Shown here: positions 6,695 through 52,572 of the stretch, piece after piece | How positions within the stretch are numbered: the stretch's first letter is position 1 | Layout of the letters: every line of letters begins with the position of its first letter | Source: a virus | Lineage: Duplodnaviria; Caudoviricetes | Direction: 5' to 3' (one strand) | IMG/VR virus record: IMGVR_UViG_3300017700_000721 | Location: 1-64,000 of that record | Length of the DNA stretch: 64,000 bases | Translations under genes and position numbers: made by a program | Notes under the pieces: model-generated | The model's input: the letters and a program-made list of their open reading frames with translations, nothing else | What the model was told of the DNA's origin: nothing | Database searches by the model: none

Positions 6695-6695
6695 G

Positions 6696-7529: not shown

Positions 7530-7542
7530 AAGAGCCTCCTGT

Positions 7543-7761: not shown

Positions 7762-7765
7762 GTCC

Positions 7766-8065: not shown

Positions 8066-8089
8066 CTGTCTCTCCTTGTTGATGTCACT

Positions 8090-8118
8090 ATTATAGCACA
8101 GCTAGGGACAGATGTCAA
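8090..8118 (-). promoter_or_regulatory. sigma70-type promoter
   Basis: TTGACA-17-TATAAT. Confidence 0.9.
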
Positions 8119-8135
8119 CAAGAGAAGTTATGCTC

Positions 8136-8342: not shown

Positions 8343-8589
8343 CTTCCTTCTCCAGCTGCTTGGCCTCGAACTCCTCGATAGCCTCGTCCAACTGATCATC
8401 GTATTCAGCCTGCCAGACCTCGTCTTTCGTGACCTCGGTGATGATCTCGCTGGGGAACTGGTTGGGAGCGGTCGCACAGAACCGCTCCAAGAAGGCGTCG
8501 GCTTGAGCCTTGGCGTGGTCCATCATCGCCCGCTTCTGCTGAGCGGAGCGGCCGGAGACAATCTCGTCTTCACGTAGGTTGCGGGTCAT
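8329..8589 (-). CDS. Hypothetical acidic protein
   Basis: 86-aa ORF with acidic C-terminus. Confidence 0.7.
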   Translation of the reverse strand: MTRNLREDEIVSGRSAQQKRAMMDHAKAQADAFLERFCATAPNQFPSEIITEVTKDEVWQAEYDDQLDEAIEEFEAKQLEKEDAGS

Positions 8590-22851: not shown

Positions 22852-23073
22852 TCAGACGTGCCAGGAAAGGAGGGTGTAGGCATTCCTCGAGATCTTCATG
22901 GCTGCCAGCACCGTTTCGCGGGTCACAATCTTGTCCTTCTCCCTAAGCTTGGAGCAAAGCTTGTCTGCGGCGGAGGAAGGATTTACGGCTTCGCCGATAC
23001 GATCTCCGTTCAGAAGTACGGGAACCCTGGCAGGATTGAAAGGCTTTAGTGCTTTTCGCCTCTTAGATCCCAC
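22852..23073 (-). CDS. Hypothetical protein
   Basis: 73 aa, GTG start. Confidence 0.55.
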   Translation of the reverse strand: MGSKRRKALKPFNPARVPVLLNGDRIGEAVNPSSAADKLCSKLREKDKIVTRETVLAAMKISRNAYTLLSWHV

Positions 23074-23552
23074 AGGCTGTGCTCCATGATGGCTGGCTGA
23101 GGGCCGGCCGGTTGGTTCTGGTACTTCCCGGAATACATCTGCTCGGTGGGCTTGTCCAGCTGCTTGAAAACAATCTGGGCGATCGGGGTGCCCTTCTTCA
23201 GTAGGATTGGCCAGGGCTTGAAGCGAGTCAGTTCAAGGGTCAGGTAGCCTTTCCAACCCGGCTCGATGATCGTGTTCTGCACGAAGACGAAGAGCCTGGC
23301 GTTGGTCGACTTATCCTTGACCTCCGCACAGACATCAGCAGGCATGCTGATGTGCTCGATGATGGAGCCCAAACGACCCCAGAAAGGCCAGAGCCAGATG
23401 TCCTGGTCAAGCCTGACGTCGTAGCCACACGACGACAGTCCGAATGAACGGCCGTGGATCTTCTCCCGCTCGTTGAACGGGTGGATCATGGTGTGATGAA
23501 GGTCCACGACGGGGTGGCATCGCGCACGGATAGACTGAGCGGAGAGGATCAT
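23046..23552 (-). CDS. dcd: dCTP deaminase
   Basis: MILS, GLSSCGYDVRL, KSTNAR, IEPGWKGYLTLEL, IAQIVF, Y.GKYQNQ. Confidence 0.92.
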   Translation of the reverse strand: MILSAQSIRARCHPVVDLHHTMIHPFNEREKIHGRSFGLSSCGYDVRLDQDIWLWPFWGRLGSIIEHISMPADVCAEVKDKSTNARLFVFVQNTIIEPGWKGYLTLELTRFKPWPILLKKGTPIAQIVFKQLDKPTEQMYSGKYQNQPAGPQPAIMEHSLWDLRGEKH

Positions 23553-24796: not shown

Positions 24797-27127
24797 TCAG
24801 GAACAGTCCGACTTTCCACAGTTCATACACGTCTTGCAGCCTGAGTTCGAAATCACTGCCGGCGTGTTACAAGAGGAGCAGAGCATTCCAAGGACCTTGT
24901 CCAGGGCCTTTGACTTCTCGGTAGGCTCGGCTTCAGGTGCCTCAATCGTCACGTCGTCAGGGATCAGCCCCAGCCATTTGAAGTGCTCTTCGATCTTGAA
25001 GCCGATCGCGGCCACGAGAGAGTTGATGTAGGATCCCTCGTGCCACATACCACCGAGAGCTGAGCGAACCTGCTTCAATTCCTCGATGATAAAGGTTACG
25101 TCACCTCCACGACGGAAGATGGCGGTGATAAGGAGGGTGATGGCCTTCGTCCACTCCTCGTGCTGTGCCGACTTCGAGATGATAAACATCTCGAAGGGAC
25201 GACGCTGACCGGCTTCGTCCTTGTAGTCGTTGATCACGATGTAAAATGCCTGGTCCGTCGTCGGCCACTTCACCCGATAGCGACGACCTTCGAGGGTATC
25301 CTTCATCGGAACTTTGTCGACAGGAGCCTTGACTGCGGTCTTCTTCGCCAGAACTGTTCCGCGACCGCTTTCCGGGTTCGGGCGATAAGTCGTACAGCCC
25401 TTGAGGCCGAGCTCGTAGGCCCGGCTGTAAACCTTCTGGAAAGACTCGAAGGTCATGTCCTGCGGACAATTGATTGTCTTGGAGATCGACGAGTCAATCC
25501 ACTCCTGGCAGGCTGCCATCACGGCAACATGCTCATCCACTGTGAGTGTGTCAGCCGTGCAGGTGATGTAGTCCGGAAGGGCGTTCCCACCGTCGAGAGG
25601 CAAGCCCTTCACCTCATGGTACTTGAGATAGCCGTAGTCGTACAGCTCGAAGGTCTTGAAGGATCCGTCGGCCTGGAGCACGCGGCGGGTGCCTTCAAGG
25701 CTGAAAACAGGCTCGATCCCCGACGATGTGTTACCGGCTGTGACAGATGTCGTCCCGGTCGGAGCGATGGTCATTAGCACGGCGTTGCGGATGCCGTAGG
25801 CTGCTATCCCTTCCACGATGTCCTCCGGGAGCTTCTTGATGAAGTTTCCCTGGAGGTATTGCTCCTTCCGGAAAGCAGGAAAGGAGCCGCGCTCCTTCGC
25901 AAGGTTAATCGACGCCCTGTAAGCGGCGCAGGTCATTTCCTTCGTGATCTCGCTTGTGATCTCGATTGCCTTGGCCGACCCATATTTCACACCCAGCATC
26001 TGTAGGGCGTTGGCCAATCCCGTGAAGCCAATGCCTGTTCGACGCTTGGCCTGAGCTTCTTCCTTCTGGCTGGGCGTCGGGAAAAGACTCACATCCAATA
26101 CGTTGTCCAAGAAGCGGACAAGGACCCCGGCCGTCCACCTCAAAGCGGCATAGTCGAAAGAGGCTTCTGGCGTGAAAGGGTCGGTCACCATCACAGCGAG
26201 ATTGATGTGGCCCAGGTTGCAGTCACCGTTGGCCGGCAAAGGCTGCTCACCACACGGATTGGTACAGTGAATGTACTCGCAGTAGTGCAGGTTGTTCCAG
26301 TAGTTGATCCGGTCAACGAAGATTATGCCCGGTTCGGCGTGCTCATAGGTGTTCCTGATGATCTCGTCCCAGAGCACACGCGCCTTGATGCGCTCGTAAA
26401 CGTACCTGGTCTGACCATCACGCTCATATGTGTCGACGTGCTTGCGGTCTCGGCGAGGGACAGTGAAGAACAGATCCCAATCAAGATCCTTCTCCAGGCA
26501 TTCCATGAAGACGTCCGTCACCAGGACGGAAACGTTGAAATTGGTCAAACGACCAGGTGTCCGCTTGGCCTTGATGAACTCCCGAATGTCGGGATGATGG
26601 ATGGCCAGAGTTGCCATCATTGCGCCGCGGCGAGAACCCGAAGACATGATCGTCGAGCACATCGAGTGCCACATGTCCATGAAATGGAGCACGCCAGATG
26701 ACTCAGAGAAAGTGCGTAGGACCTCGGCACCGCGCGGCCGGAGGGGTGTGAAATCCATTCCGATGCCACCGCCCATCTGCTGGGTGAGGGCGGCCTGCTT
26801 CAGGGCGTCCATGATGCCAAGGCCGGGCTTGTCTCGCTCGGTGTCCATGCTGTCTTGGATGTCGTCACTGACGAAACAGTTGATCAGCGTGACCCTCTTC
26901 TTCGTGCCAGCACCAGACATAATACGTCCGGCCGGGACCATCCGGCGACTCACAAGGGCTGACAGCACCTCGTCATGGAATGAGTTCTTCGGGTCCTTCT
27001 CGGACACCGCCTTCGCGAGCCTGGCAAAGGTCTCGTCGATCGTCTTCTCGTTGTCGTAGGAGTACTTATCTTTCCAGATCTCGTGCACGATCGGCTGCAC
27101 AGTCTCGGCCGGATTGGTCATTTCCAC
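24797..27127 (-). CDS. nrdJ: Class II (adenosylcobalamin-dependent) ribonucleotide reductase
   Basis: PAGRI, LINCFV, GGGIGMDF, RRGAMM, TNPCGEQPL, TIAPTGT, ISKTIN, C-terminal domain with Cys pairs; no small subunit nearby. Confidence 0.95.
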   Translation of the reverse strand: MEMTNPAETVQPIVHEIWKDKYSYDNEKTIDETFARLAKAVSEKDPKNSFHDEVLSALVSRRMVPAGRIMSGAGTKKRVTLINCFVSDDIQDSMDTERDKPGLGIMDALKQAALTQQMGGGIGMDFTPLRPRGAEVLRTFSESSGVLHFMDMWHSMCSTIMSSGSRRGAMMATLAIHHPDIREFIKAKRTPGRLTNFNVSVLVTDVFMECLEKDLDWDLFFTVPRRDRKHVDTYERDGQTRYVYERIKARVLWDEIIRNTYEHAEPGIIFVDRINYWNNLHYCEYIHCTNPCGEQPLPANGDCNLGHINLAVMVTDPFTPEASFDYAALRWTAGVLVRFLDNVLDVSLFPTPSQKEEAQAKRRTGIGFTGLANALQMLGVKYGSAKAIEITSEITKEMTCAAYRASINLAKERGSFPAFRKEQYLQGNFIKKLPEDIVEGIAAYGIRNAVLMTIAPTGTTSVTAGNTSSGIEPVFSLEGTRRVLQADGSFKTFELYDYGYLKYHEVKGLPLDGGNALPDYITCTADTLTVDEHVAVMAACQEWIDSSISKTINCPQDMTFESFQKVYSRAYELGLKGCTTYRPNPESGRGTVLAKKTAVKAPVDKVPMKDTLEGRRYRVKWPTTDQAFYIVINDYKDEAGQRRPFEMFIISKSAQHEEWTKAITLLITAIFRRGGDVTFIIEELKQVRSALGGMWHEGSYINSLVAAIGFKIEEHFKWLGLIPDDVTIEAPEAEPTEKSKALDKVLGMLCSSCNTPAVISNSGCKTCMNCGKSDCS

Positions 27128-28242: not shown

Positions 28243-28803
28243 CTACGACTCCCTCATCAGCAAGGCCAAATAAGCAGCCCGGCTGGTGGGTTCATCGTCA
28301 GGAACCTCGTCGTAACGGTTCATGAATCCCAGGTCTTCGAGAAGGCCTCGAGCCATGAAATCCCATGCAATACGGCTGGCGTAGCTGTTCTCGCGAATGG
28401 GATCAAGAGGTGCCGACCATTCACAGATCGGGAAATAGAAGAGCCGGTCGTAGGACTCGAGGTTCTCCTTGACCAAGATCATCATGCTCTTGCATGTGCT
28501 GTCGTCGATCGACGAGCGGGCCCAGAGCATGCAGTAAACGAAGTGGTCTAGGAGGGTTCGGTCGAAAAGACCGTGCTTGTGGTTGCGGTCCTGCTCGATC
28601 TTCCGGTCGAAGCCGGTCTTCTGCAGGCGCCAGGTAAGTTCGTCGCTCATATCTCTTTGAGCGCCCTCGCTACCCACGGACAGCTCTTGCAGAACCTGGC
28701 GCATCACACCGGGGACATAAGCTTCCTTGACACGAGGCTCGAGAAGCTTGAGCGTCGTCGTCTTTCCTGTCGCACCGGTACCGATGCATCCAACTTTCAA
28801 CAT
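28243..28803 (-). CDS. P-loop NTPase / nucleotide kinase (AAA_28-like)
   Basis: IGTGATGKTT, FDRTLLDHFVY, YDRLFYFP. Confidence 0.85.
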   Translation of the reverse strand: MLKVGCIGTGATGKTTTLKLLEPRVKEAYVPGVMRQVLQELSVGSEGAQRDMSDELTWRLQKTGFDRKIEQDRNHKHGLFDRTLLDHFVYCMLWARSSIDDSTCKSMMILVKENLESYDRLFYFPICEWSAPLDPIRENSYASRIAWDFMARGLLEDLGFMNRYDEVPDDEPTSRAAYLALLMRES

Positions 28804-29453
28804 CACGGCTCCACTCGACGATGGCTGAGGTAGGTTCGGGTTTCCATCCGGGCCAGGACATTCCCTGACATCTCGTCCAGAAGATAGCAGAGCTTTGCGA
28901 GCACGCTGCAATCCCAGGGCTTGATCTTCGAGAAGCCGCCTTCAGCCCAGCAGAGGGCGTTCAGCTGCTGCGGGTCGAGCTGGATCTCGTGCTTGTTGAG
29001 TAGCCACAGAGACTTGATGTCCGTGGTCATCAGATCCTCTTCGGGATCCTTCGCGTAATCACATTGCCAGGGATCCTCTGACAGCAGCTTGTAGGTTCGA
29101 TGCGCTTTGTGAAGATCGTGGTAAAGGATCGCCTTGAACACCCGCTCGTCGTTAACAAACGCCGGGTCGGTCTTGTGGTTCAGGATGGTGTGGCTGAGTG
29201 AGCAGTAAATGCCCCACATCTCCAGAAGATGGTGAATGAGGCCGCCTTCGAAAGCGTGGTGGTTGCCTTTGGCAGCGGGGGCGCGCTTGAAGCCTACCAA
29301 AGTCATCTTCAATTCATCATCGACGGTGTCGGCCTCCAAGGAGGCAAGCATCGAAGTATGAGCCTGGCTGTCACGAGCGTCGGGGATCATTGCAACAGCC
29401 AACTGGTTGAGGCGGATCCAATTGTCGTTGATGTCCAGTTGACTGAGCTTCAT
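28803..29453 (-). CDS. HD-domain phosphohydrolase (YhaM-like HD)
   Basis: APAA..NHHAFEGGLIHH, ILYHDLHK. Confidence 0.85.
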   Translation of the reverse strand: MKLSQLDINDNWIRLNQLAVAMIPDARDSQAHTSMLASLEADTVDDELKMTLVGFKRAPAAKGNHHAFEGGLIHHLLEMWGIYCSLSHTILNHKTDPAFVNDERVFKAILYHDLHKAHRTYKLLSEDPWQCDYAKDPEEDLMTTDIKSLWLLNKHEIQLDPQQLNALCWAEGGFSKIKPWDCSVLAKLCYLLDEMSGNVLARMETRTYLSHRRVEP

Positions 29454-30782: not shown

Positions 30783-31972
30783 CAGGTCCCCGGCTTCCGG
30801 AAACCATTCACCGGGACAGCTGGCCCTGCCGGCATTTGCGGCCGGAGCGATGAGACCGGACCGCCTGGACGAATCGTGGCCGGCGTATCCGTCAAAAGCA
30901 CGTTGCCGATTGAGGCAATCCCGAAGTTGATGGTGGCATAGTCCATTGGTAAACCAAGGATCGCTTCCGCTGTCGGGAGCAGGCTGTCCTTGCCACGAGC
31001 CTCCACAACACGAGCCAGCCAGGCCTTGTCGGTTGCCGTCGAGTTGTCGATGTTGATCGTCAGGCGATATGCGTTGATAAGCACCTCACCAATGCTTGCG
31101 GTAAGGTCGGCAGCTGCGAGGGTGCAAAGAAGGGCCTCTAGCTGCTCGAAGGCCGACTTCTTGTCCTTCTCGCACAGCAGCTTGTAGACCTCGACGTAGC
31201 GATCCAGCTTGAGGAACTGACGGACCAGATCTTCGGTAACAACCGGAGCCATCTGCGACAGTTGCTCCAGGAAGACCATCGAGTCACGGGCATGGCCACG
31301 AACGTAGGTTGCGATGATGCTGAGTGCCTTCGGCTCGAAGTTGATCGCCTCCCTGGTTGCCACTTCGGTCAGACGGGCTGCAATGAGCTCCGTCTTCAGA
31401 AGCCTCATCTGGAGCTCGATGCAACGTGACAGGATGGTCGGCAACATCTTGCCGCTCTCCGTCGTACAGAAGCCGAACATCACGTGCTCTTGACCCTCCT
31501 CGAGGATCTGGAGTAGTGCATTCTGAGCTGGCACGGAGAGCATGTGCGACTCATCGTAGACAATGATCTTGATCTTGTCGCCGGTGCGATACTGAACCAT
31601 GTCCTTCATGGCGCGCACGTCGTTCACCGCACCCTGACTGGCGGCGTCCACCTCGACATAGTTCGGATGGTTCTCGTTGTCCATCGCCTGGCAGCTGTCA
31701 CACAGACCGCAAGGCTCATAGGGCTTGCCCCGTAGGTTCTCCGGCAAGCCCATCTGGACGGTCGAAAAGGTCGGGCTGTCGCAAAGAAGGGCCCGAGCCG
31801 TGAGGCGTGCGAGGGTCGTCTTACCTGTGCCGAAAGGGCCGGTGTAAGCCAGAGCGTTGGGACGCCAGGCCTCCTGAACGATCTTGAGCAGAACCTGGAC
31901 TGCCCCTTCCTGACCCATCACCTCCCCAAACTTGCGGGGGCGCATACGATTGGCAAGTGTACCCGTAGCCAT
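30782..31972 (-). CDS. dnaX: Clamp loader subunit gamma/tau
   Basis: LA.R.RP..F.EVMGQ, GPFGTGKTT, PCG.C.SC, EVDAAS, DESHMLS, TILSRC, G.ARD. Confidence 0.95.
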   Translation of the reverse strand: MATGTLANRMRPRKFGEVMGQEGAVQVLLKIVQEAWRPNALAYTGPFGTGKTTLARLTARALLCDSPTFSTVQMGLPENLRGKPYEPCGLCDSCQAMDNENHPNYVEVDAASQGAVNDVRAMKDMVQYRTGDKIKIIVYDESHMLSVPAQNALLQILEEGQEHVMFGFCTTESGKMLPTILSRCIELQMRLLKTELIAARLTEVATREAINFEPKALSIIATYVRGHARDSMVFLEQLSQMAPVVTEDLVRQFLKLDRYVEVYKLLCEKDKKSAFEQLEALLCTLAAADLTASIGEVLINAYRLTINIDNSTATDKAWLARVVEARGKDSLLPTAEAILGLPMDYATINFGIASIGNVLLTDTPATIRPGGPVSSLRPQMPAGPAVPVNGFRKPGT

Positions 31973-32595
31973 TAGATCTCCAATGAGCGAATTTGCCGCT
32001 CCACTATTTCTTTTGCTCGCCGCTCGCCACGATCCTCAATCAGCTTAGAAGGATCTTTCGAGGGGATCATCAGCCTGTTGATTTCCAACGAGTCTCTCAG
32101 CCTCTGGTCCGCAGCGTCAGTAGCTTTCTCGCCGGGACCGTCGTGATCAAAGGCGGTCCAGACTTGGCGAGCGTATCTCTTCAAGAAGACTAGTAGGTGC
32201 TTAGCTATACCTTTAGAGAGACGGGCGTAGACCGCATAGTCCGGCACGCATCTCTTGATTGCTGCACGGTCGAACAGCCCCTCGGTCAGGATCACCCGAC
32301 CGTTCAAGTAGAGTAGTTCGTGGTCCTGCTCTGATCCGTAAAGGATCGGCAGGTGGCTCGCGTTCGTTCCAACAGCCCATCGGTATTCATGGACGTCAGC
32401 TCTGCGTGTCTGAACACCGGCAATCTGCCCTCCCATGCTTCGGCAGGGCCAGGCTATCACAGGGTTGTCGGTTCGTATTGTCACACCCTCGACGTTGTGT
32501 ACCCCCTCACCTAAAGACCTGATATCCTCCTGCTCGATCAAAGCAGGGGTATAAGATCTGGTGAGTAGGTACGCTCGATGGGCGTCTGAAAGCAT
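31972..32595 (-). CDS. DNA primase catalytic (Toprim) part lacking zinc finger
   Basis: YL..R, ILTEGLFD, AFDHDGPG..A, KDP. Confidence 0.85.
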   Translation of the reverse strand: MLSDAHRAYLLTRSYTPALIEQEDIRSLGEGVHNVEGVTIRTDNPVIAWPCRSMGGQIAGVQTRRADVHEYRWAVGTNASHLPILYGSEQDHELLYLNGRVILTEGLFDRAAIKRCVPDYAVYARLSKGIAKHLLVFLKRYARQVWTAFDHDGPGEKATDAADQRLRDSLEINRLMIPSKDPSKLIEDRGERRAKEIVERQIRSLEI

Positions 32596-32760: not shown

Positions 32761-35700
32761 TTACTCCGCTGCAACTAGCTCGTGCCCAACGTCGATCGCC
32801 TGCAGCTGGCGTGTGAAGAACACGTCCATATCTACAGGATAGTTGATGTCGAGGCCGTTGTCGGCTACAAGCGAGATACCCGACTTCAGCTTCTCGCCTC
32901 GGAAGAGGTCCATCTCAAGCGGCCCGCCAGTCACAGAACAGGTCTGCACTTCACCCGCAAGGGCTGCGAAGACGTCGGTTTCGCCCGTCTCCTTCGCCAG
33001 CTGCAGGTAGCCGTCGCAATAAATGGGGTAAGCCTTCCAGCTGAAACCCTTTCGGCCGGTGACTGCCTCCAGCATGGCCATCGGATTGTAGTTACCCGAG
33101 ATCACCATTCGCACAAGGGTGCCGCGCTGGTCAGGCATCCACTGGTAGGTTACCTGGCGGACGTCCTTCGCTCCGAGAGCCTGCTCGATGGTGACGAACA
33201 CACCCTTGCCCTGGGTCTTCTTGATCTTGATCTGACCTAGCTTGCCTTCGTACTTGCGCTCGAAATAACGCTCGATGTCACCTCGAATACGGGCGTGACT
33301 CATACCCGAGTTCGGGATGAACATCGAGTAGATGGCATAGTCCACGTCGTTTCGCAGGACGGTAAGATGAGTGTCCATGCGAATGTCGATGATCTCGCCT
33401 TCCCTGATGTAGGTGTTAGCCTCGGCGATCATCCCGCGGAGCTCGCTCTCTGAGACAGGGCTCGAGAGCGAGAAGTCATAGATGTTGTGCCCGAAGGTCC
33501 AGTCCTTCGCCATGTTGGCACCAGCCGCAATGCGCGCATGCCCAATCGAGCCCACGAAAGCATCGTTGAACTTCTTGGACACGTTCATCAGGGCGCGGGG
33601 GATCTGGTACTGGAAGTAGCCCTTCATGACGAACCTGTAGATCGGGTCCGTTGTCCGGAAAAGCACTCGAAGGTGATAGCTCTTTTCGCGAGACTGGGCG
33701 GCGGCCGAGATCTTCTCGGTCGGGATGGTCGGTGCAACTCGGCGGCCTACAATGGCCTTGATAAGGGCAGTGTTAGGCTTACCATCCTTGTCCGGGTCAC
33801 AGGCGCCGCACTCGTTGACATGGCAAACACCCTTGATCGTCCGGGTGCTGAGGCAATAAGCCACACCCTGGTAAGCAACTGCCTTCACGTAGCCGCGCCA
33901 AAGGATCTCCTTCGAGGTCGAGTAAGCGATGTCTTCCCACGGGAAGATGTACTCGAAGGACTTCTCGCCCCAGGTGATCTCCAAGTCAATATTCGGGTCG
34001 CGCTTGACACGCTCAGCCCACCTGGTCCAAGTTCCCTTCGGGACGTTACCGTAGAAGCGGAAGCCGTCCTTGAAGTGCGACTGGATCAGAAGGCCGGTGA
34101 TGTTGCGACCACCGTGGTTAATGGTGTTCGAGACAAGGGGCTCCTCTCCGGAGACGGAAAGACGACGACCCCAGCCCAGCTCTTTTGCTCTTCCGAAGAG
34201 CTTATCCAGACTGCGGGTGCCATGCATGATCGCAGCATTGCAGGGAGCAAACTGGAGGGCAGTGAAAGCAGAAGGGAAGAGCGGGGTGAATGAAACACGA
34301 AAACGGGTCGAAGCTCCCAGCTTTTGTCGGAGGGCATTGACTTTCTCCATCAAGGAGCAGAACTCCTGGACGTCGTGATCCTGCTCGAGCCCGGTCACGA
34401 TCTGGAAGAACTTGAGCTCACCTGCCCCTTCCTTCATCATCTCGGCCGCACACATCAAGATCTCCCACTCCTGGAGGTTCTTGTTGAGGTAGGCTCGGGT
34501 GCGGCCGCTGATGCCCTCGACGCCGAGGGTAAAGTTGGACTTCTTCAGCCAACGCTGAACCTTGACCTGCTCCGGCGTCTCGGCCAGCATGTCAATACGC
34601 TGGGAGATCAAGCCCACCTTGTAACCGCGCTTAACGCTCTCGGCCACGAGGGGGAAGAAGTCGGAATACTGGTTGAAGTTCAGCGAGAAGAAGCTGACTT
34701 CCTTGGTACCTTGGTTGCGTGTGGCGTTGTCGAGGGCGTCCATCACCTTCCCGAGCGAACGCTCCCGGTAGGGGCCCTCAGACCCTTCTCGGCAGAAAGA
34801 GCAAGCACCCCAACCGGCAGATCCAATGCAGCCAACGGAGCCTGCGATAGCCACATCGACTGACGCACCGTCTCCTGTGTAAGGGAGAATCTTCTGCTCA
34901 AGGGTTCGCACGGTGTCGAGGTTATCGACGTTCGACCGCGTGACGGGAAACTGAGCATAGTCACAGCCTTCCTTCCGACGGATGGAAGTTATCGAGCCCT
35001 TACCGTCGAACTCGTGGACGTAGCAATCCGGCTCGTAAAAGCCCATCACTCGTCCGTGGCAGTTGCGGAGGATCTCCCGCTTGGACCAGCCCTTCTGCTT
35101 GCCCTCACGGACAATACGCATGAACTCCTTACCCGCTTCCTCGCCATCGCCGTAGATCACGGCGTCTACCAAGGTCGAGTATTTTGTCCCATCCGAGGCA
35201 ATAAACTCCCCGGCCAGGGGCGCGGTCGTTCCGGAATTGGCTCCACCGACGAGGATAATCGGAATGTCCTCGCGCTCCATCCGCTGCTCCTTGAAGAGCG
35301 GGATGCCCGAGTCGTGAAGCAACGGCACGAAGTTTAGCTGCTCCATCGACACGGCATGGGTGATTGAAAGAACATCGAAGCGATGAGCCTTCAACTTGGT
35401 TCCAACACCAAACCAGACCGGAAAGTTGTTCTCCAGAAGGAGACGATAGTCGTTCGGCTTGGGAAGGAAGGCCAGGTCGCAGAAGGTGTAATCCTCCTCG
35501 CCGTAGATCTGCGCCATCAGCGAGTGCGACATCGAGAGACTCACACTCTCGTAGGTCGATAGCCGGGCGATCAAGATCCGGACTTCAGCGCTCTGGTAAC
35601 GCTCCATGTCAGGGCTGTTCGCTTCGCCTCCGATGTAGGCGTACGGGCTGTCGAATTTGTGGAGGTTGTTTCGGAAGAAATCGAGGAGGGGCGGACCGTC

Positions 35701-35934
35701 CAGAACCGGCTTCGGGTTCAGGATGAAGTGCTCATCCATTTCCTTCTCGTCCTGCAGCTGCAGGAAGTCACGGGTGTTTCCGCCCGTTAGAAATGTTCCT
35801 TCGATCTGGTTTTCCTCGGAGGTCATCGCCTGTTCGAGCGCTGACATCTCCTCGTACAAATCCTCGTTGACCTCCTCGACCGGGGTGGCGTTCACTTCGA
35901 GGGCGTCCACTGAGGGCTTGTCGGTCATATACAA
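32761..35934 (-). CDS. Large radical SAM protein (TIGR03960-like, with radical-SAM-linked C-terminal region)
   Basis: DLAFLP, FDVL, PIILVGG, DAVIYGDGEE, GC-X8-CSFC, C-terminal C..C....CGAC. Confidence 0.8.
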   Translation of the reverse strand: MYMTDKPSVDALEVNATPVEEVNEDLYEEMSALEQAMTSEENQIEGTFLTGGNTRDFLQLQDEKEMDEHFILNPKPVLDGPPLLDFFRNNLHKFDSPYAYIGGEANSPDMERYQSAEVRILIARLSTYESVSLSMSHSLMAQIYGEEDYTFCDLAFLPKPNDYRLLLENNFPVWFGVGTKLKAHRFDVLSITHAVSMEQLNFVPLLHDSGIPLFKEQRMEREDIPIILVGGANSGTTAPLAGEFIASDGTKYSTLVDAVIYGDGEEAGKEFMRIVREGKQKGWSKREILRNCHGRVMGFYEPDCYVHEFDGKGSITSIRRKEGCDYAQFPVTRSNVDNLDTVRTLEQKILPYTGDGASVDVAIAGSVGCIGSAGWGACSFCREGSEGPYRERSLGKVMDALDNATRNQGTKEVSFFSLNFNQYSDFFPLVAESVKRGYKVGLISQRIDMLAETPEQVKVQRWLKKSNFTLGVEGISGRTRAYLNKNLQEWEILMCAAEMMKEGAGELKFFQIVTGLEQDHDVQEFCSLMEKVNALRQKLGASTRFRVSFTPLFPSAFTALQFAPCNAAIMHGTRSLDKLFGRAKELGWGRRLSVSGEEPLVSNTINHGGRNITGLLIQSHFKDGFRFYGNVPKGTWTRWAERVKRDPNIDLEITWGEKSFEYIFPWEDIAYSTSKEILWRGYVKAVAYQGVAYCLSTRTIKGVCHVNECGACDPDKDGKPNTALIKAIVGRRVAPTIPTEKISAAAQSREKSYHLRVLFRTTDPIYRFVMKGYFQYQIPRALMNVSKKFNDAFVGSIGHARIAAGANMAKDWTFGHNIYDFSLSSPVSESELRGMIAEANTYIREGEIIDIRMDTHLTVLRNDVDYAIYSMFIPNSGMSHARIRGDIERYFERKYEGKLGQIKIKKTQGKGVFVTIEQALGAKDVRQVTYQWMPDQRGTLVRMVISGNYNPMAMLEAVTGRKGFSWKAYPIYCDGYLQLAKETGETDVFAALAGEVQTCSVTGGPLEMDLFRGEKLKSGISLVADNGLDINYPVDMDVFFTRQLQAIDVGHELVAAE

Positions 35935-36099
35935 CTCCAGATGAGAGGATTGGGGCTTGCCGCTTCCGCGTTAACCTTGTTTGGTTAACAAGGTGCCCGT
36001 TCCAGCTATCCAATACCAGTGGAGGTGCTCAGTAGCAAGGGCTTAAACCCACCTCCCTTCCACGTGTTCCCAAGTTACATCCCTCGTAATAGAGCTAGA

Positions 36100-36732
36100 T
36101 CAAGGCTTCTTGACTAAGTCAAAGGTCACTCCAGCCTTTGACTCTTTCGCCTCGTAATGGGCAGTGGCATGACGCACGAAGCCTTCCTGATGGGTGATCA
36201 TCAAGATACTAAACCCTAGCTCCCGACAGATCTTCTGGAGAAGGGCAGAGGCGTTCTCGTGGTACTGCACAGAGAGATGGGAAAGAGACTCGTCCAGCAT
36301 AAGGAAGCGCTTCTTCTTCAGGACGATGATCGTCACGACCCTGAGTAGTACGCCGGAGAGCACGAGGACTCCACCACCGAAGCTCTCAAGGAGAGGAGCA
36401 CTCTTTCCGTTGTGGTAGAGCTCGAACTTCATGCTGGTCTTGCCGCGGTATTTGTCCACCACGGTCTTAAATTCCAGCTTCTGGTCGTAAAACACAGCCT
36501 TCAGTCCGGCTGTGACCAGCTTGTCGATGGTGTCTGTAGATTGGTTGAGGGCCTTAGCTGAGACAGCCTGGAGGGTGGCTTCCACCTTCTCCAAAAGGTC
36601 AACTTCTTTCGTCAAGGCTAGGTATTCAGCCTCCAAACGAAGAAGGTCGTCCTTCCGATCAGAGAGTTGCCGCTCCCTTACGGCAACCCCCTGCTCTAGT
36701 TCGACTAGCTTTTTGTCGATCTCCGGTATCAC
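36100..36732 (-). CDS. SbcC/Rad50-like ATPase, C-terminal half
   Basis: Coiled coil, FGGG signature, FLMLDESLSHL Walker B, MITHQ. Confidence 0.85.
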   Translation of the reverse strand: MIPEIDKKLVELEQGVAVRERQLSDRKDDLLRLEAEYLALTKEVDLLEKVEATLQAVSAKALNQSTDTIDKLVTAGLKAVFYDQKLEFKTVVDKYRGKTSMKFELYHNGKSAPLLESFGGGVLVLSGVLLRVVTIIVLKKKRFLMLDESLSHLSVQYHENASALLQKICRELGFSILMITHQEGFVRHATAHYEAKESKAGVTFDLVKKP

Positions 36733-37259: not shown

Positions 37260-37517
37260 TCAGAGAAGGCCTTCGCGGCTGAGCTTCTTCTCGATTGCGT
37301 TAATCACGTCTTTCCGGGAGGTTGAAAGATCCCACCGGAAACCTTGTGACCTGATACCTTGAAGGGCTGATCTTGTGAAGCCCTCCTCGTAGTCAGTCAG
37401 AACCTCGTCTCCGATCGCCGTCTCCGCTGCCTCGAGCACCCGTTTAGCTTCCGAGTGCTCGAGCGGAAGGATCTGACGAACAGAGCCGAAACCGACCTGT
37501 TCGCCGTTGCTACTCAA
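37260..37517 (-). CDS. Hypothetical protein
   Basis: Tiling ORF; start uncertain. Confidence 0.55.
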   Translation of the reverse strand: MSSNGEQVGFGSVRQILPLEHSEAKRVLEAAETAIGDEVLTDYEEGFTRSALQGIRSQGFRWDLSTSRKDVINAIEKKLSREGLL

Positions 37518-38799
37518 GGGAGACGTCTTCCAGGGCGCCTTCGGCCAGCTCGGTTGAGGACTCGGTTCCGTCGACACCTGCGTTGGTGACTGGAGTCTCC
37601 TTCGTGCGAGCCTTCTCGGCTGCCGCAGCGTCGGCCTTCTCCTTCTCGATCTGGGCGTCGGTCCGGAACGGGATCACGGTCACGACCTCACGGTCGTTTG
37701 TATGATCGCGAACCAGAAGCAGGTGCTTCTTCTGGATGATCGACAGGTCGACGACCGAGTCACCCTTGAAAACAGAGAGGGTGTCGTTGAGGTGCTTGAA
37801 GGACACCGGGAATGAGGTCGCGGTCGTTCCGGTGCGGCCGCACGAGCAGCGTTCGTAGGAGCGACGGCCGAGGCTGTTCTTCGAGGAGACCTCGAGGTAC
37901 TGCTCCGGCTTCTGGCCGTCCGCGTCGAAGATCACCTTGACTTCCTGGGAGTCGAGACCCAGGGCGACGCCGGCGATCATGGCCTGCAGGACCTTCTTGT
38001 CGATGGAGATCTCGTCGTCGGGGGTGCCGACAGCGGTGATCATGCCCTCGACCTGTGGGAAGTGGCGCTCAACCTTGCGGATGCCGAAGGTGAAGCCGTT
38101 CAGCTTACCCCGCATGTAGTAGTAGTTTTGGCCGTCGATGAGCTGGACGCTCTCGGCCTCGGTGTTCTTGATGGCCGTGATGACAGCGCTGAGGATCGCG
38201 GCCGGCACTTTGTAGGACAGGCTCTTGTCGAAGCCGTCATGGGAGTAAATCATGATCTTGCTGCCGTCCGACGACAGAACACGGCCGCCACGAAGCTCGA
38301 CATGTGTCACGTCGGGGCGGAGGTTGTTCGCTGTCGTGCAGCTCTTGGCGCAGGTGAGGGCTTCCTCGAAGGAGGAGCGGTCGATCGACGTGCCTTCCAT
38401 CGTAAGATGGTCCGAAACGCCTTGCTCGATCTGCTTGAGCGTCGCCGAGTCATAGAGGACCAGGTTGACAGTGAGAAGACCAGACTGAACTTCGAGACCT
38501 TCCTGGTCGGCCTTGAAATAGACCCGCTCGGCTTCGGTGCTGTTCACGAGGTTGATGAGCTTGGCGCCCATGACGCCGAAGGATCCGTCGACCGGCGTCT
38601 CTTCGGTCCGCGTGATCGGCTGTTCGGTACGGCAGAACATCTCCTTGCCGGAGGTGAACATCGTCAGCTTGTTGCCGGTGACGTTGAAACGAATGAGAAG
38701 GCCGGGAAGATCCGTCTTGAGGGAACCGAGGCCGTTGCGGACGAAGTTGACGCGCTGGCGCAACTCCTTCATCTCGACTGAGAAGTTCACGTCTGCCAC
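37510..38799 (-). CDS. dnaN: Sliding clamp (DNA polymerase III beta-like)
   Basis: Three-domain length, SSDGSKI (cf. ATDGHRL), FPQV, VIPFR near C-terminus; context with dnaX. Confidence 0.8.
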   Translation of the reverse strand: MADVNFSVEMKELRQRVNFVRNGLGSLKTDLPGLLIRFNVTGNKLTMFTSGKEMFCRTEQPITRTEETPVDGSFGVMGAKLINLVNSTEAERVYFKADQEGLEVQSGLLTVNLVLYDSATLKQIEQGVSDHLTMEGTSIDRSSFEEALTCAKSCTTANNLRPDVTHVELRGGRVLSSDGSKIMIYSHDGFDKSLSYKVPAAILSAVITAIKNTEAESVQLIDGQNYYYMRGKLNGFTFGIRKVERHFPQVEGMITAVGTPDDEISIDKKVLQAMIAGVALGLDSQEVKVIFDADGQKPEQYLEVSSKNSLGRRSYERCSCGRTGTTATSFPVSFKHLNDTLSVFKGDSVVDLSIIQKKHLLLVRDHTNDREVVTVIPFRTDAQIEKEKADAAAAEKARTKETPVTNAGVDGTESSTELAEGALEDVSLE

Positions 38800-40076: not shown

Positions 40077-41116
40077 TTCTTGTCGCCTTTTAGCTCGGCG
40101 GCCTGGATGTATTCAAGGGCACGCTTGCGAACCTCCTCAGAGGGTGCGACCTCGGATAATATATCGACGGGGTCGGCCGACTTGACTTCCGCCGAGGCCA
40201 GGGTGGTAATGAACTCGTCCATTTCCTTGCGCTCGGCTTTGATTTCGGCATGCTTTTCCAGGTCCAGTAAGTCCTCGATCGGGGGCATCTTGGGGCGGAG
40301 AAGGGTGAACTTCCGCTCGATCTTGCCGTCGACCTTAGATACCTCGATGAGGCATGCAGCGGGACGGCGATTGAGGTCATGACTGTGAGAGCCTGTGATA
40401 GACATTGAGCCTTGCGAGACGTAGTGGCGCCCGGCTACCTCGGCAACACCTTTGTCCTCGTGGTGGTGACCCACGCAGATGATGTCAGACTCTGACTCCT
40501 TGAAGAAGTCGAAGCCGTAAAGGGCCTCGCCGAAGAACTCGCCGGTCTGGGCCCCTAGCCAGAAATGACCCATTGTGATAAGGGTGTCGGCTCCGAGCTT
40601 CTTCTTGTCACGGATGTGTTGAGCCTGGCCGTGATGGTAGGAACCGCCTGCGATACGCACGGTGTGCCCGTCGCATTGATACAGGTAGTCGGCTCGGTCA
40701 AGGAGGTGATAGGCTCCGGCCTCGATGAGGACTTCGATCGGCTGGCCCTTGAGACCCGTCTCGAGGGAGCCGTATTTGATGTCGTGGTTCCCGGCTACGC
40801 CAAGGTTCTTGAGCGCCCCTTGGATTTGAACCTCTTTGAACTCCCGGATGGTCTTTGCGACTAGCCACAGGGGGTTGTTTCGAGGTTCCTTGAGGTGAAA
40901 AAGGTCCCCAGACCAAAGAATAGCGTCGACCTTTAGGCGAATAGCCGCCTGGAATACCTGGGATAGCATGCTGTCCAGGTGCTCAGGGTAAGGCACCTTG
41001 AAGGCTGGCGGTGACGAGGCTGCGATATGCGGATCGTTGATCTCGATCGCCCGGAAGGTGGTCGGATCCTTCGCTTCACATTTAACGGTGATCACCTCAG
41101 ACATGGACGTGATCAC
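40073..41116 (-). CDS. SbcD/Mre11-like metallophosphoesterase
   Basis: DPH, GDLFH, GNHD, GH.H. Confidence 0.9.
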   Translation of the reverse strand: MITSMSEVITVKCEAKDPTTFRAIEINDPHIAASSPPAFKVPYPEHLDSMLSQVFQAAIRLKVDAILWSGDLFHLKEPRNNPLWLVAKTIREFKEVQIQGALKNLGVAGNHDIKYGSLETGLKGQPIEVLIEAGAYHLLDRADYLYQCDGHTVRIAGGSYHHGQAQHIRDKKKLGADTLITMGHFWLGAQTGEFFGEALYGFDFFKESESDIICVGHHHEDKGVAEVAGRHYVSQGSMSITGSHSHDLNRRPAACLIEVSKVDGKIERKFTLLRPKMPPIEDLLDLEKHAEIKAERKEMDEFITTLASAEVKSADPVDILSEVAPSEEVRKRALEYIQAAELKGDKK

Positions 41117-42161
41117 CCTGGAATGCTCTCTGACACGTGGGACAGATACCCAACTTGGCTTCCAGCTCCAATCTCTTGGTGTCTGCGACAGCCATTTCCC
41201 TGAGGGTCAGGTCCAAGCCTTGCTCGATCATTTGTTCCTTGGTGGTGAGCTCGCTGTACTCGATGAGAGCTTTGAGCTCGACAAGGGAGGGGATGGTCTG
41301 GTGGTCAAACTCGACGGCTGCAGGAAGGGGTCGGGTGTGGAGAGTGAACAGCTCAAGGATCAAGGTGATGGCCTGACTGTTCTGCGGGGGAGACGGGAGC
41401 GGAGGAGGCTCGGGGAGAGGTCGAAGGAGGGAGAGGAGACGTTCGTACTCCTCGATCTCCCCCATCCTCTTGTAGGATTGCTCGATCTGGGTCTTGAGCT
41501 CGGCCGTCTCTCGCTGGAGGTCAATCAGCTGGGACCGAAGGGCTGGGACGTGGTCGAGCTCCTTCACTCGGGCTCGTTGGGTCTCGGTGTCCTCCCGACG
41601 GATGGCCTTGCGGTCCGTGTTCTCCTTCAGGTCCTTCTTCGCCTCTTTCTGGGCGTCGGTCACGATATCGGCTCGACCCAGGATCTTGAAGACCTCGGCT
41701 ACAGCCGTCTCGTTGGCTCCTATGAGAAAGATCTGGTCGAACTGACCTGCGACCTGGGGGCGGAACCGAGCGGTTGTGGTCTCAATCTCCGCTATGCCGT
41801 AGGGTGCGACGAGGTCCTTGTGGTCACGGCCGATCTTGGTGTGGACGTGGCCGTTGATCGCCAGGACTGGCTGGAGGTTGGGTGTCCGGGCCTGCGTCTT
41901 GACCTTCCGCCACTGAACTTTGAACTCACCCTGCCCATCCTCAATAACAATCGCTCCGCCTGCCCAAGCTTCTCCGTTCTTTATAAACGACTCGCCGGGG
42001 GCTCCGAAGAGCATGGCCGTTGCTGCCCTGATGAGGGCCGACTTGCCGATATTTGACTTGCCGGTCACGACGGTGAGGCCGCTGACTTCGATCTTCGCGT
42101 CGGCGATGGACTGGTAGTTGCGAACTCGGATCTTGGTTGAGGTCGGAGGAGGAGAGGTCAT
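41097..42161 (-). CDS. SbcC/Rad50-like ATPase, N-terminal half with zinc hook
   Basis: NYQSI, GKSNIGKS, Q-loop GQFD, coiled coil, terminal CPTC. Confidence 0.9.
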   Translation of the reverse strand: MTSPPPTSTKIRVRNYQSIADAKIEVSGLTVVTGKSNIGKSALIRAATAMLFGAPGESFIKNGEAWAGGAIVIEDGQGEFKVQWRKVKTQARTPNLQPVLAINGHVHTKIGRDHKDLVAPYGIAEIETTTARFRPQVAGQFDQIFLIGANETAVAEVFKILGRADIVTDAQKEAKKDLKENTDRKAIRREDTETQRARVKELDHVPALRSQLIDLQRETAELKTQIEQSYKRMGEIEEYERLLSLLRPLPEPPPLPSPPQNSQAITLILELFTLHTRPLPAAVEFDHQTIPSLVELKALIEYSELTTKEQMIEQGLDLTLREMAVADTKRLELEAKLGICPTCQRAFQGDHVHV

Positions 42162-52260: not shown

Positions 52261-52572
52261 CTAGTCCAGAAGGGTTGCCGCGAATGGCGACGGGTCGCTG
52301 TTTCCTACCAGGAGACCCAAAAGGCTGGCCTGATTGGCGTCGAGCTTCCCGAGGTTAGGGTTCAAGAGCACTTGAAGCTGCTCCGAGGAGCGTACAGCAT
52401 CAGGATACGGAGCATCCGGGAGTTCAGCCACCATCTGGTCGATGGAGTCACCCAAGATGGTGAAACCATCGCTCACGAGCACAGCCTTGCAACGTCGCTG
52501 GGCTGTGCAGTTCTTGCAGGCTGCAAGAGACTCGCCGCCGAAGAAACCAAAGCAGCTTTCCTTGGTCGTCAT
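52261..52572 (-). CDS. Cys-containing hypothetical protein
   Basis: CFG...C..C.....C. Confidence 0.7.
   Translation of the reverse strand: MTTKESCFGFFGGESLAACKNCTAQRRCKAVLVSDGFTILGDSIDQMVAELPDAPYPDAVRSSEQLQVLLNPNLGKLDANQASLLGLLVGNSDPSPFAATLLD

What the first reader, a model, noticed from the sequence alone, without database searches (positions are those of the whole stretch)
32761..35934. 1057-aa radical SAM enzyme with non-canonical CX8CX2C motif embedded in the replisome operon
Seen: cluster motif CIGSAGWGACSFC instead of CX3CX2C, a second Cys group (YC...C....CGAC), a long C-terminal extension, and a position between the SbcC/clamp genes and primase/clamp loader. A C-terminal EMDLF loosely resembles the QL[S/D]LF clamp-binding motif. 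Known: TIGR03960-like radical SAM proteins are uncharacterised, and some phage radical SAM enzymes hypermodify DNA. Inference: a new DNA or nucleotide modification chemistry, possibly supported by dcd, the kinase, HD protein and SurE.
Basis: partly seen in the sequence, partly recalled or inferred. Interest (0 to 1): 0.7.

Follow-up and report, generated by a model that had tools for sequence, protein, structure and literature searches.

The report
Conserved phage radical SAM fusion enzyme
This uncultured 118-kb phage carries a very strongly conserved iron-sulfur "radical SAM" enzyme fused to a domain shaped like RNA-modifying pseudouridine synthases; it is a viral cousin of a widespread but unstudied bacterial enzyme pair and probably modifies RNA or DNA chemically, though which one is not known.

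Summary
The ORF is real (window 32761-35934, minus strand; the likely start is ATG 35928, giving 1055 aa). The CX8CX2C motif is real and conserved in its clade. It is a 5-residue loop insertion into a canonical CX3CX2C; sister lineages carry CX5-CX7, and bacterial relatives CX3.

The "C-terminal extension" is a divergent DUF2344/TIGR03936 domain (hhalign 96%, E 2e-9) with a pseudouridine-synthase fold (Z 11 to PUS10/TruA), followed by a degenerate zinc ribbon. The whole protein is therefore a viral form of the uncharacterised bacterial TIGR03960-TIGR03936 pair, which sits just upstream of RNase E/G.

Relatives only 24-29% identical occupy the same slot (SbcC C-half, rSAM, clamp loader) on 12 viral contigs, but sister phages with the same module lack the gene. 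It is more conserved than RecA, RNR and the clamp. Homologs carry inteins at six or more sites, including cluster cysteines.

The dcd, RNR and CobS genes are absent from other carriers, so the proposed "support genes" are not linked to it. EMDLF lies inside the ribbon; clamp binding could not be tested.

Best reading: a two-cluster radical SAM enzyme acting on a polynucleotide, with RNA versus DNA unresolved. I class it as a new variant of a known uncharacterised family, of moderate-to-high interest.

The parts
32761..35934 (-). Radical SAM fusion protein ORF (1057 codons from TTG; probable true start ATG at 35928, 1055 aa)
   Evidence: homologs 60-91% identical
35755..35934 (-). Acidic, predicted-disordered N-terminal region (res 1-60) with a motif conserved only in the close clade (LYEE.SALEQAM.SEE)
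   Evidence: pLDDT below 50 for res 1-53; alignment A1
34945..35637 (-). Rossmann-like, B12-binding-like N-terminal domain (Pfam Radical_SAM_N2, res 142-302)
   Evidence: structural matches to the cobalamin-dependent rSAM enzymes MgmA, TsrM, OxsB, CysS and TokK
33865..34857 (-). Radical SAM core barrel (Pfam res 377-527) and post-barrel helices
34792..34830 (-). SAM-cluster motif C369-x8-C378-x2-C381 (CIGSAGWGACSFC): a canonical CX3CX2C with a 5-residue Gly/Ser/Ala loop insertion
   Evidence: inteins inserted at C381 in several homologs
33799..33855 (-). Auxiliary cluster candidate C694-x9-C704-x4-C709-x2-C712
   Evidence: nearly invariant in A2; bacterial TIGR03960 has C-x5-7-C-x2-C here; inteins at C704 in P0008 and P0040
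32995..33681 (-). DUF2344/TIGR03936-like domain with pseudouridine-synthase fold (res about 752-980); conserved H799-x-R801, D820, N840, Y869
   Evidence: hhalign Prob 96.2%, E 2.3e-9 against bacterial DUF2344; Foldseek and VIA top hits TruA/Pus1/PUS10, Z 10.5-11.5
32860..32949 (-). Degenerate zinc-ribbon-like hairpins (res 996-1025) containing EMDLF (32902-32916); homologs have CxxC...LExDLFTG...CxxC
36100..36732 (-). Upstream neighbour: C-terminal half of a split SbcC/Rad50 ATPase (signature motif, Walker B, H-loop)
   Evidence: sequence; conserved position upstream of the rSAM on 12 viral contigs
31972..32595 (-). Downstream neighbour: 207-aa Toprim protein (close clade only)
   Evidence: present in L002 and L003
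30782..31972 (-). DnaX-like clamp loader, the conserved downstream partner of the rSAM gene
   Evidence: the genes overlap in L107, L108, L109 and L112
37510..38799 (-). Probable beta-type sliding clamp (429 aa; no Pfam hit for this copy)
   Evidence: ESM Atlas neighbours carry DNA_pol3_beta domains, score 0.95; three homologs carry PF00712

Best explanation
The gene encodes a viral, highly diverged form of the bacterial TIGR03960 (radical SAM) plus TIGR03936/DUF2344 ("radical SAM-linked") system, fused into one polypeptide.

Shown here:
- The order of parts is: a Rossmann/B12-like domain; a radical SAM barrel whose [4Fe-4S]-binding loop is lengthened to CX8CX2C; a four-Cys site for a second cluster; a DUF2344-type domain with the pseudouridine-synthase fold; and a degenerate zinc ribbon.

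Inferred:
- The SAM cluster cleaves SAM to a 5'-deoxyadenosyl radical.
- That radical abstracts a hydrogen from one nucleotide of a polynucleotide held, probably flipped out, in the cleft of the pseudouridine-synthase-like domain.
- The second cluster, and possibly a cobalamin in the N-domain, completes a C-H functionalisation. Methylation or a related carbon-carbon or carbon-sulfur addition is the most likely class, given the nearest solved structures.
- The target is RNA slightly more probably than DNA.

The gene is an accessory but, where present, exceptionally constrained member of the RecA-SbcCD-clamp-loader module of a group of large uncultured phages.
For: Family and domain identity:
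- TIGR03960 aligns over 91-712 of the protein and 4-605 of the 605-position model. PF19864 and PF04055 pass their cut-offs.
- The C-terminal profile matches bacterial DUF2344 at Prob 96.2%, E 2.3e-9, over 194 columns. Phage GHAR aligns to the bacterial PHPK motif.

Structure:
- AlphaFold models reach pLDDT 89.8 (full length) and 91.8 (C-terminal part).
- For the C-terminal domain, the top 19 Foldseek hits and top 16 VIA hits are all pseudouridine synthases: PUS10 Z 11.5, TruA Z 11.0, Pus1 Z 10.5. Unrelated folds score about 6.
- The N-domain plus core best match MgmA, TsrM, OxsB, CysS, TokK and MiaB.

Bacterial relatives:
- DUF2344 is fused to or directly downstream of bona fide TIGR03960 in 73 of 80 loci.
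- RNase E/G follows in 5 of 5 genomes and in 42 of 63 loci with enough downstream sequence.
- A split viral form exists (L113: a 576-aa rSAM plus a 385-aa C-domain gene).

Signs that the enzyme is active and constrained:
- The catalytic Cys and core motifs are invariant.
- Inteins sit at C381, about S417, about T514 and C704, among other sites.
- The protein is 63% identical to its L002 counterpart, against RecA 48%, RNR 53% and clamp loader 46%.
Against: - No biochemical data exist for any member of the family; literature searches for TIGR03960, DUF2344 and "radical SAM-linked protein" found nothing functional.
- Sequence-level homology to TruA is not significant (hhalign Prob 0.1-20%). No Asp is found in the loop that should correspond to the pseudouridine-synthase catalytic loop, so the domain may have a role other than nucleotide binding.
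- The protein scores far below the TIGR03960 cut-off (170 against 462 bits), and Pfam DUF2344 does not detect it.
- The phage has no RNase E/G and no tRNA genes in the window, so the bacterial RNA context does not carry over directly.
- Cobalamin binding is only suggested by fold.
Confidence: 0.5

Rival explanations
1. DNA hypermodification at the replication fork. The enzyme modifies a base in phage DNA during or just after synthesis. It may be recruited by the sliding clamp through the LExDLF element, marking phage DNA as self against host restriction or against the phage's own nucleases.
For: - The gene holds a fixed slot between the SbcC C-half and the clamp loader on 12 viral contigs, even at 24-29% identity.
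- The rSAM and clamp-loader genes overlap on four contigs.
- A beta-clamp candidate lies in the same operon.
- LExDLF resembles the Qx[SD]LF clamp-binding consensus (my own knowledge) and is conserved in the close clade.
- The accessory distribution is typical of anti-restriction modification genes.
- The many inteins match the pattern seen in phage DNA-metabolism genes.
Against: - All solved pseudouridine-synthase-fold enzymes returned by the searches act on RNA, and the bacterial relatives are linked to RNase E/G.
- No partner genes for a hypermodification pathway are conserved: dcd and RNR are absent from other carriers, and the own genome has no ThyA-type hydroxymethylase.
- EMDLF is internal and lies in a confidently folded hairpin.
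- Gene position in a phage operon may reflect timing of expression only.
Confidence: 0.25
2. The substrate is not a nucleic acid: the enzyme modifies a protein, cofactor or small molecule. One example would be a cobalamin-dependent methylation like that of MgmA, or cofactor chemistry serving the B12-dependent RNR. In this reading the pseudouridine-synthase-like domain is only a scaffold or a ligand-binding module.
For: - The best structural match of the catalytic part is MgmA, a protein Gln C-methylase.
- The window also encodes a class II RNR, CobS and CobT.
- The first ferredoxin-like half of the C-terminal domain also resembles ACT and SEA domains at Z about 6.
- No catalytic Asp of the pseudouridine-synthase type was found.
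Against: - RNR and CobS are absent from five other carrier phages, including three that are at least 93% complete, while PolA is found in all five.
- The full pseudouridine-synthase fold match (195-218 aligned residues, Z 10.5-11.5) stands well above the half-domain matches.
- The bacterial operon partner is a ribonuclease.
Confidence: 0.2
3. The protein is catalytically dead or purely structural, kept for a non-enzymatic role in the replication/recombination complex.
For: - The cluster loop is expanded.
- The zinc ribbon has lost three of its four Cys in this phage.
Against: - All three SAM-cluster Cys, the four auxiliary Cys and the core motifs (E473-G474, R446/D448, K508, I512, G515, E517, D521) are invariant or nearly so.
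- Inteins target these very residues.
- Overall conservation is very high.
Confidence: 0.03

Closest known systems
Bacterial TIGR03960 radical SAM protein plus TIGR03936/DUF2344 'radical SAM-linked protein' (separate or fused; uncharacterised)
   Same: Same domain order: PF19864 N-domain, rSAM core, C-terminal Cys cluster, then a DUF2344-type domain. End-to-end alignment to TIGR03960. Profile-profile homology of the C-domain. Both fused and split versions exist in viruses, as in bacteria.
   Different: The protein scores 170 bits against the 462-bit cut-off, and Pfam DUF2344 does not detect it. The cluster motif is CX8CX2C instead of GCxRGCRFCQAG. There is a fourth auxiliary Cys, an added zinc ribbon and an acidic N-tail. 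The bacterial clade is separated by a long branch. The genomic partner is SbcC/clamp loader rather than RNase E/G.
MiaB/RimO/MtaB methylthiotransferases
   Same: Three-part logic: an N-terminal flavodoxin/Rossmann-like domain, a two-cluster radical SAM core, and a C-terminal domain that holds the macromolecular substrate. Structural hits 7mjz, 7mjv and 4jc0.
   Different: In those enzymes the auxiliary cluster lies in the N-domain and the substrate domain is TRAM. Here the extra Cys lie after the barrel and the substrate domain has the pseudouridine-synthase fold.
Cobalamin-dependent (class B) radical SAM enzymes: MgmA, TsrM, OxsB, CysS, TokK
   Same: These are the best structural matches for the N-domain plus barrel (9ccb E 9.6e-13; 6wte; 5ul4) and the best PDB sequence hit (9ccb, E 1.3e-7).
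   Different: There is no PF02310 B12-binding hit. Cobalamin binding was not tested. None of those enzymes has a pseudouridine-synthase-like domain or a post-barrel four-Cys site.
TruA/Pus1/Pus3/PUS10 pseudouridine synthases
   Same: The fold of residues about 751-1015 (Z 10.5-11.5, 195-218 aligned residues).
   Different: Only 8-12% identity and no significant profile match. The loop expected to carry the catalytic Asp carries a conserved H-x-R/K instead; this is inferred from topology and a weak alignment.
Phage DNA-modification radical SAM enzymes (QueE in 7-deazaguanine pathways; the rSAM of thymidine hypermodification clusters) - from my own knowledge
   Same: They are phage-encoded radical SAM enzymes connected with nucleic-acid chemistry. 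QueE also shows expanded cluster loops.
   Different: Those are small single-domain enzymes that act on free precursors or sit within defined multi-gene pathways. No such pathway genes are conserved with this protein.

Membership tests
Radical SAM superfamily (PF04055) | Three-Cys motif binding the SAM [4Fe-4S] cluster | tested here: met
   C369, C378 and C381 are invariant in 78 sequences. The spacing is CX8CX2C, formed by a loop insertion into CX3CX2C.
Radical SAM superfamily (PF04055) | Pfam model above the gathering score, and a partial TIM-barrel fold | tested here: met
   32.5 bits against 29.5. Foldseek matches to many solved rSAM enzymes at prob 1.0.
Radical SAM superfamily (PF04055) | Reductive cleavage of SAM | not testable with these tools
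   This needs anaerobic biochemistry.
TIGR03960 (NCBIfam rSAM_fuse_unch) | Score at or above the curated cut-off (462.3 bits) | tested here: not met
   170 bits. All sampled metagenomic relatives score 87-187 bits.
TIGR03960 (NCBIfam rSAM_fuse_unch) | Full-length collinear architecture, including the PF19864 N-domain | tested here: met
   Model positions 4-605 of 605 are aligned to residues 91-712. PF19864 scores 66 bits against 29.
TIGR03960 (NCBIfam rSAM_fuse_unch) | Linked or fused TIGR03936/DUF2344 partner | tested here: met
   hhalign Prob 96.2%, E 2.3e-9. The bacterial linkage holds in 73 of 80 loci.
TIGR03960 (NCBIfam rSAM_fuse_unch) | Operon with RNase E/G (seen in the sampled bacteria) | tested here: not met
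   No PF10150 match in the complete phage genome. In bacteria: 5 of 5 genomes and 42 of 63 loci.
DUF2344 (PF10105) / TIGR03936 | Pfam model hit | tested here: not met
   No hit at E<=10 on the C-terminal 359 aa, nor in the genome at E<=1.
DUF2344 (PF10105) / TIGR03936 | Profile-profile homology over most of the domain | tested here: met
   194 of 236 template columns aligned, Prob 96.2%.
Pseudouridine synthases (TruA/Pus1 family) | Pseudouridine-synthase catalytic-domain fold | tested here: met
   VIA Z 11.5 (2v9k), 11.0 (1vs3), 10.5 (4iqm, 7r9g). Foldseek E 2e-5.
Pseudouridine synthases (TruA/Pus1 family) | Universally conserved catalytic Asp | tested here: inconclusive
   The hhalign alignment to TruA is not significant. 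The topologically equivalent loop (res 799-812) starts with H-A-R and has no Asp at the aligned position. No residue-level superposition was possible.
Cobalamin-dependent radical SAM enzymes | Cobalamin-binding Rossmann domain | tested here: inconclusive
   The fold resembles MgmA, TsrM and OxsB, but there is no PF02310 hit. Binding cannot be tested here.
Beta-clamp-binding proteins | Qx[SD]LF-type pentapeptide in an accessible, usually terminal or disordered, segment | tested here: inconclusive
   EMDLF (1007-1011) lacks the Q. It lies between the zinc-ribbon knuckles in a region of pLDDT about 88 and is 46 residues from the end. Co-folding was not available.

The most novel reading that the evidence does not exclude
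The enzyme rides with the phage replisome. It would be recruited to the beta-type clamp through its LExDLF hairpin and co-translated with the clamp loader. It would use radical chemistry, with a base flipped into a pseudouridine-synthase-like pocket, to write a so far unknown modified base into nascent phage DNA. That would be the first DNA-directed use of the pseudouridine-synthase fold, and it would give the first function for the TIGR03960/TIGR03936 family.
Probability: 0.15. Interest if true: 0.85.

Novelty: new variant of a known kind. Interest (0 to 1): 0.55.

Why it matters
TIGR03960 and TIGR03936 form a widespread bacterial gene pair with no known function. This work links the pair to a pseudouridine-synthase fold and to RNase E/G, and it shows a large, much more diverse viral radiation of the same system.

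In these phages the enzyme is the best-conserved gene of the replication/recombination block. Inteins have invaded it repeatedly at its catalytic cysteines, a pattern otherwise typical of polymerases, helicases, RNR and terminases. That marks it as important to phage fitness.

If the substrate is DNA or RNA, this would be a new radical-based nucleic-acid modification. It would bear on phage-host conflict and could serve as an enzymatic tool. If it is not, the family still supplies a well-defined target with strong structural models for assigning a function to an "orphan" radical SAM clade.

Tried and rejected
Searches that found nothing:
- PHROGs gave no family.
- The ESM Atlas search on the C-terminal part gave only a 0.81 hit, which is uninformative.
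- The tblastn hit in "Microcystis phage MaAM05" lies among ispG, ispH and trpS. It is an ordinary bacterial-type TIGR03960, so it was rejected as a phage relative.
- No cultured phage in the INPHARED copy carries the phage-type protein. BFVD holds no full-length structural counterpart.

Ideas tested and rejected:
- Extra-long homologs might have carried informative fused domains. P0170 and P0086 carry only inteins/homing endonucleases.
- A functional link to class II RNR and CobST is rejected, because those genes are absent from other carriers. The same holds for dcd.
- The idea that the rSAM is a universal part of this replisome module is rejected. Only 3 of 80 loader-centred viral loci have it. 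In L144, L155, L161 and L206 the SbcC C-half abuts the clamp loader directly.
- The promoter/terminator scan around the gene found nothing above background.

Limits of what was done:
- The 820-870-aa clade (A4) was not found on IMG/VR contigs, and all sampled relatives are metagenome-only, so their hosts remain unknown.
Clamp binding and the environmental source were therefore not examined.
Full report
**1. The observation**

The minus strand of the window carries one open frame from 35934 to 32761 (1057 codons). The TTG chosen by the ORF finder directly follows a GGAG. The ATG two codons later (35928) has that GGAG at a 6-nt spacing, and it is also where the closest homolog and the Atlas record begin. 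The protein is therefore most likely 1055 aa. I keep the 1057 numbering below.

Pfam finds Radical_SAM_N2 (res 142-302, 66 bits) and Radical_SAM (res 377-527, 32.5 bits). NCBIfam TIGR03960 aligns from end to end (res 91-712 to model positions 4-605 of 605), but at 170 bits against a cut-off of 462. PHROGs has nothing.

The motif CIGSAGWGACSFC (C369-x8-C378-x2-C381) and the second group C694/C704/C709/C712 are both present. They are invariant or nearly invariant across 78 aligned relatives. The genome is a complete 118,081-bp IMG/VR phage with direct terminal repeats.

**2. What the unusual motif is**

About 50 metagenomic proteins of roughly 1050 aa are 60-91% identical to this one, and almost all carry C-IGSAGWGA-C-SF-C.

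An alignment with more distant viral relatives and with bona fide bacterial TIGR03960 proteins shows how the motif arose. The bacterial proteins have GCxRGCRFCQAG (CX3CX2C), and most viral relatives have GCxxxCSFCxE (also CX3). Gly/Ser/Ala/Pro-rich insertions of 2, 3, 4 or 5 residues then appear in particular lineages: CX5 in L105, L106 and P0182; CX6 in P0074; CX7 in P0066 and P0046; and CX8 in the window's clade.

The CX8 spacing is therefore a loop expansion of the standard site, not a different cluster arrangement. Expanded spacings from CX4 to CX11, including CX8CX2C, are already catalogued for other radical SAM clusters (PMC9477430).

**3. The C-terminal extension**

Pfam and NCBIfam see nothing after residue 712. 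AlphaFold2 with family alignments gives confident models: full length pLDDT 89.8 and pTM 0.89, and residues 715-1057 alone pLDDT 91.8. Only the acidic N-terminal 53 residues are predicted to be disordered.

For the C-terminal model, the 19 best Foldseek PDB hits are all TruA, Pus1, Pus3 or PUS10 (E from 2e-5). In an exhaustive VIA search, the 16 best chains are all pseudouridine synthases:
- PUS10: Z 11.5, 205 residues aligned.
- TruA: Z 11.0.
- Pus1: Z 10.5.
- Cbf5: Z 8.3.
- TruB: Z 7.7.
- TruD: Z 7.6.

Unrelated ferredoxin-like half-domains score Z about 6.

I then fetched bona fide bacterial TIGR03960 loci. In 73 of 80 loci, a DUF2344/TIGR03936 domain is fused to the radical SAM gene or encoded directly downstream of it. 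A profile of the phage C-terminal region aligns to a profile of these DUF2344 domains with Prob 96.2%, E 2.3e-9, over 194 columns. The conserved phage G-H799-A-R801 falls on the bacterial P-H-P-K, and the shared D820, N840 and Y869 positions also line up.

The extension is therefore a divergent DUF2344 domain, and that domain has the pseudouridine-synthase fold. Direct profile comparison with TruA is not significant. The loop that should correspond to the catalytic-Asp loop carries H-x-R/K instead. This last point rests on topology and a weak alignment only.

After this domain comes a small hairpin module. In many homologs it reads CxxC-G-x-LExDLFTG-...-CxxC, a zinc ribbon. In this phage and its nearest relatives, three of the four Cys are lost.

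**4. The catalytic part**

The N-domain and barrel best match the cobalamin-dependent radical SAM enzymes MgmA (9ccb, E 9.6e-13; also the best sequence hit, E 1.3e-7), TsrM, OxsB, CysS and TokK. The methylthiotransferases MiaB, MtaB and RimO come next.

The four post-barrel Cys look like an auxiliary cluster site. Bacterial TIGR03960 proteins have C-x5-7-C-x2-C at the same place.

**5. Genomic context and distribution**

In the window, read along the minus strand, the gene order is: RecA, SbcC N-half, SbcD, PD-(D/E)XK nuclease, a probable beta-clamp, a metallopeptidase, SbcC C-half, rSAM, Toprim protein, DnaX-like clamp loader, FEN, and class II RNR.

A 72-kb IMG/VR contig (L002) is fully syntenic. 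There the rSAM is 63% identical, against RNR 53%, RecA 48%, clamp loader 46%, SbcD 40% and Toprim 32%. Examples are 55% against 78%, 50% against 75%, and 43% against 64%.

Eleven further viral contigs of 20-165 kb (L105-L115) encode relatives only 23-29% identical. Every contig that extends far enough shows the rSAM gene lying between the SbcC C-half and the clamp loader. In four of them the rSAM gene overlaps the loader gene. L113 has the split form: a 576-aa rSAM plus a 385-aa C-domain gene.

The gene is nevertheless not obligatory for the module. Among the 80 best viral loci retrieved with the clamp loader, only 3 carry the rSAM. Several sister phages have the SbcC C-half directly abutting the loader (L144, L155, L161, L206) or the whole RecA-to-FEN block without the rSAM (L146, L147).

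A FastTree of the core region places all bacterial TIGR03960 proteins in one clade (support 100) on a long branch. The viral and metagenomic sequences form the remaining, more diverse part of the tree. None of the sampled relatives has an NCBI accession. No cultured phage in the INPHARED copy carries the protein, and BFVD holds no full-length counterpart.

**6. Inteins**

Twenty-two homologs are 1150-2660 aa long. BLAST against the window protein shows clean insertions at several sites:
- at C381, the third cluster Cys;
- at about S417;
- at about T514;
- at about 550-565;
- at C704, an auxiliary Cys;
- at about 363;
- within the N-terminal about 105 residues.

The extra segments match intein and homing-endonuclease families (Pfam columns; PI-PkoII and the V-ATPase intein).

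Repeated invasion at catalytic residues, together with the very high conservation, argues for an active enzyme under strong selection.

**7.

- dcd is real (23046-23552). The genome also has a weak ThyX-like gene (27 bits) and no ThyA, which looks like ordinary dTTP supply.
- Five other carrier phages, three of them at least 93% complete, lack dcd, any RNR barrel and CobS. PolA is found in all five, which shows that the search works on these records. No conserved "support" pathway exists.
A 222-aa AAA_28 protein at 28243-28911 may be the kinase.
- A DnaG-type zinc-finger gene sits next to DnaB at 59305-59955. The 207-aa Toprim protein beside the rSAM is therefore not the only primase-like gene.
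- EMDLF (1007-1011) lies inside the degenerate ribbon, in a confidently modelled region. It resembles Qx[SD]LF but lacks the Q. Co-folding with the clamp candidate was not available.

**8. Interpretation**

Secure: the protein is a viral, fused, highly diverged form of the TIGR03960-TIGR03936 system. It has an intact SAM cluster site, a probable second cluster, and a pseudouridine-synthase-fold domain.

Inferred: the pseudouridine-synthase-like domain presents a nucleotide of a polynucleotide to the radical SAM site, much as the TRAM domain of MiaB presents tRNA.

Two lines point to RNA. All solved proteins with this fold act on RNA. In bacteria the gene pair is followed by RNase E/G, in 5 of 5 genomes and in 42 of 63 loci with enough downstream sequence.

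One line points to DNA: the fixed place in the replication/recombination operon.

The phage itself has no RNase E/G and no tRNA genes in the window.

My estimates are about 0.5 for a polynucleotide-modifying enzyme with RNA slightly favoured, 0.25 specifically for replication-coupled DNA modification, 0.2 for a substrate that is not a nucleic acid, and very little for an inactive protein.

No paper in the searched library deals with the family.

**9. Verdict**

The headline feature (CX8CX2C) is a minor variation. The more interesting results are the identity of the C-terminal domain, the link to an orphan bacterial system, the deep synteny, the extreme conservation and the intein load. I class this as a new variant of a known but uncharacterised kind, with interest 0.55.

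Noticed in passing
window 41097-42161 (-) and 36100-36732 (-): The SbcC/Rad50 ATPase is split into two genes about 4.4 kb apart: an N-half with Walker A and coiled coil, and a C-half with the signature motif, Walker B and H-loop. SbcD, a PD-(D/E)XK nuclease, the clamp candidate and a metallopeptidase lie between them. The same split is seen on all related viral contigs.
   Followed up: partly
window 37510-38799 (-): A 429-aa protein with no Pfam hit is probably a divergent beta-type sliding clamp. Its ESM Atlas neighbours carry DNA_pol3_beta domains (score 0.95), and three of 98 homologs carry PF00712.
   Followed up: partly
homologs P0008, P0026, P0037, P0040, P0043, P0048, P0053-P0055, P0058, P0080-P0089 (metagenome proteins): There are at least six or seven independent intein insertion sites in one protein family. 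Some members carry up to three or four inteins (P0080 is 2662 aa). The cluster cysteines C381 and C704 appear to serve as the +1 residues.
   Followed up: partly
window 58626-59955 (-): A DnaG-type CHC2 zinc-finger ORF (59305-59955) overlaps, in another frame, a 308-aa ORF (58626-59552) that has no Pfam hit, just downstream of DnaB. This may be a primase with a frameshift, programmed or otherwise, or mis-called starts.
   Followed up: no
window 52569-55450 (-) and 24797-27127 (-): CobT-like (VWA) and CobS-like (AAA_5/CbbQ_C) genes occur together with a class II RNR that carries a TSCPD domain. This is a B12-related set, but other rSAM-bearing phages do not share it.
   Followed up: partly
L006 (Ga0307378_10018569) 743-8558: A 33%-identical, 865-aa relative sits in a quite different neighbourhood: a family-2 glycosyltransferase, a B12-binding rSAM, a SPASM rSAM and a carbamoyltransferase. 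This looks like a multi-enzyme modification cluster of unknown target.
   Followed up: no
window 35935-36099 (-): The 165-nt gap upstream of the rSAM start contains a small hairpin (CCTTG-TTAACCAAA-CAAGG). No promoter or terminator consensus was found.
   Followed up: no
MW495066.1 1-12585 (L007): The first 12 kb of the GenBank record 'Microcystis phage MaAM05' encode ispG, ispH, trpS, mqnC, fliA and a bacterial-type TIGR03960 protein. This looks like cellular rather than phage sequence.
   Followed up: no
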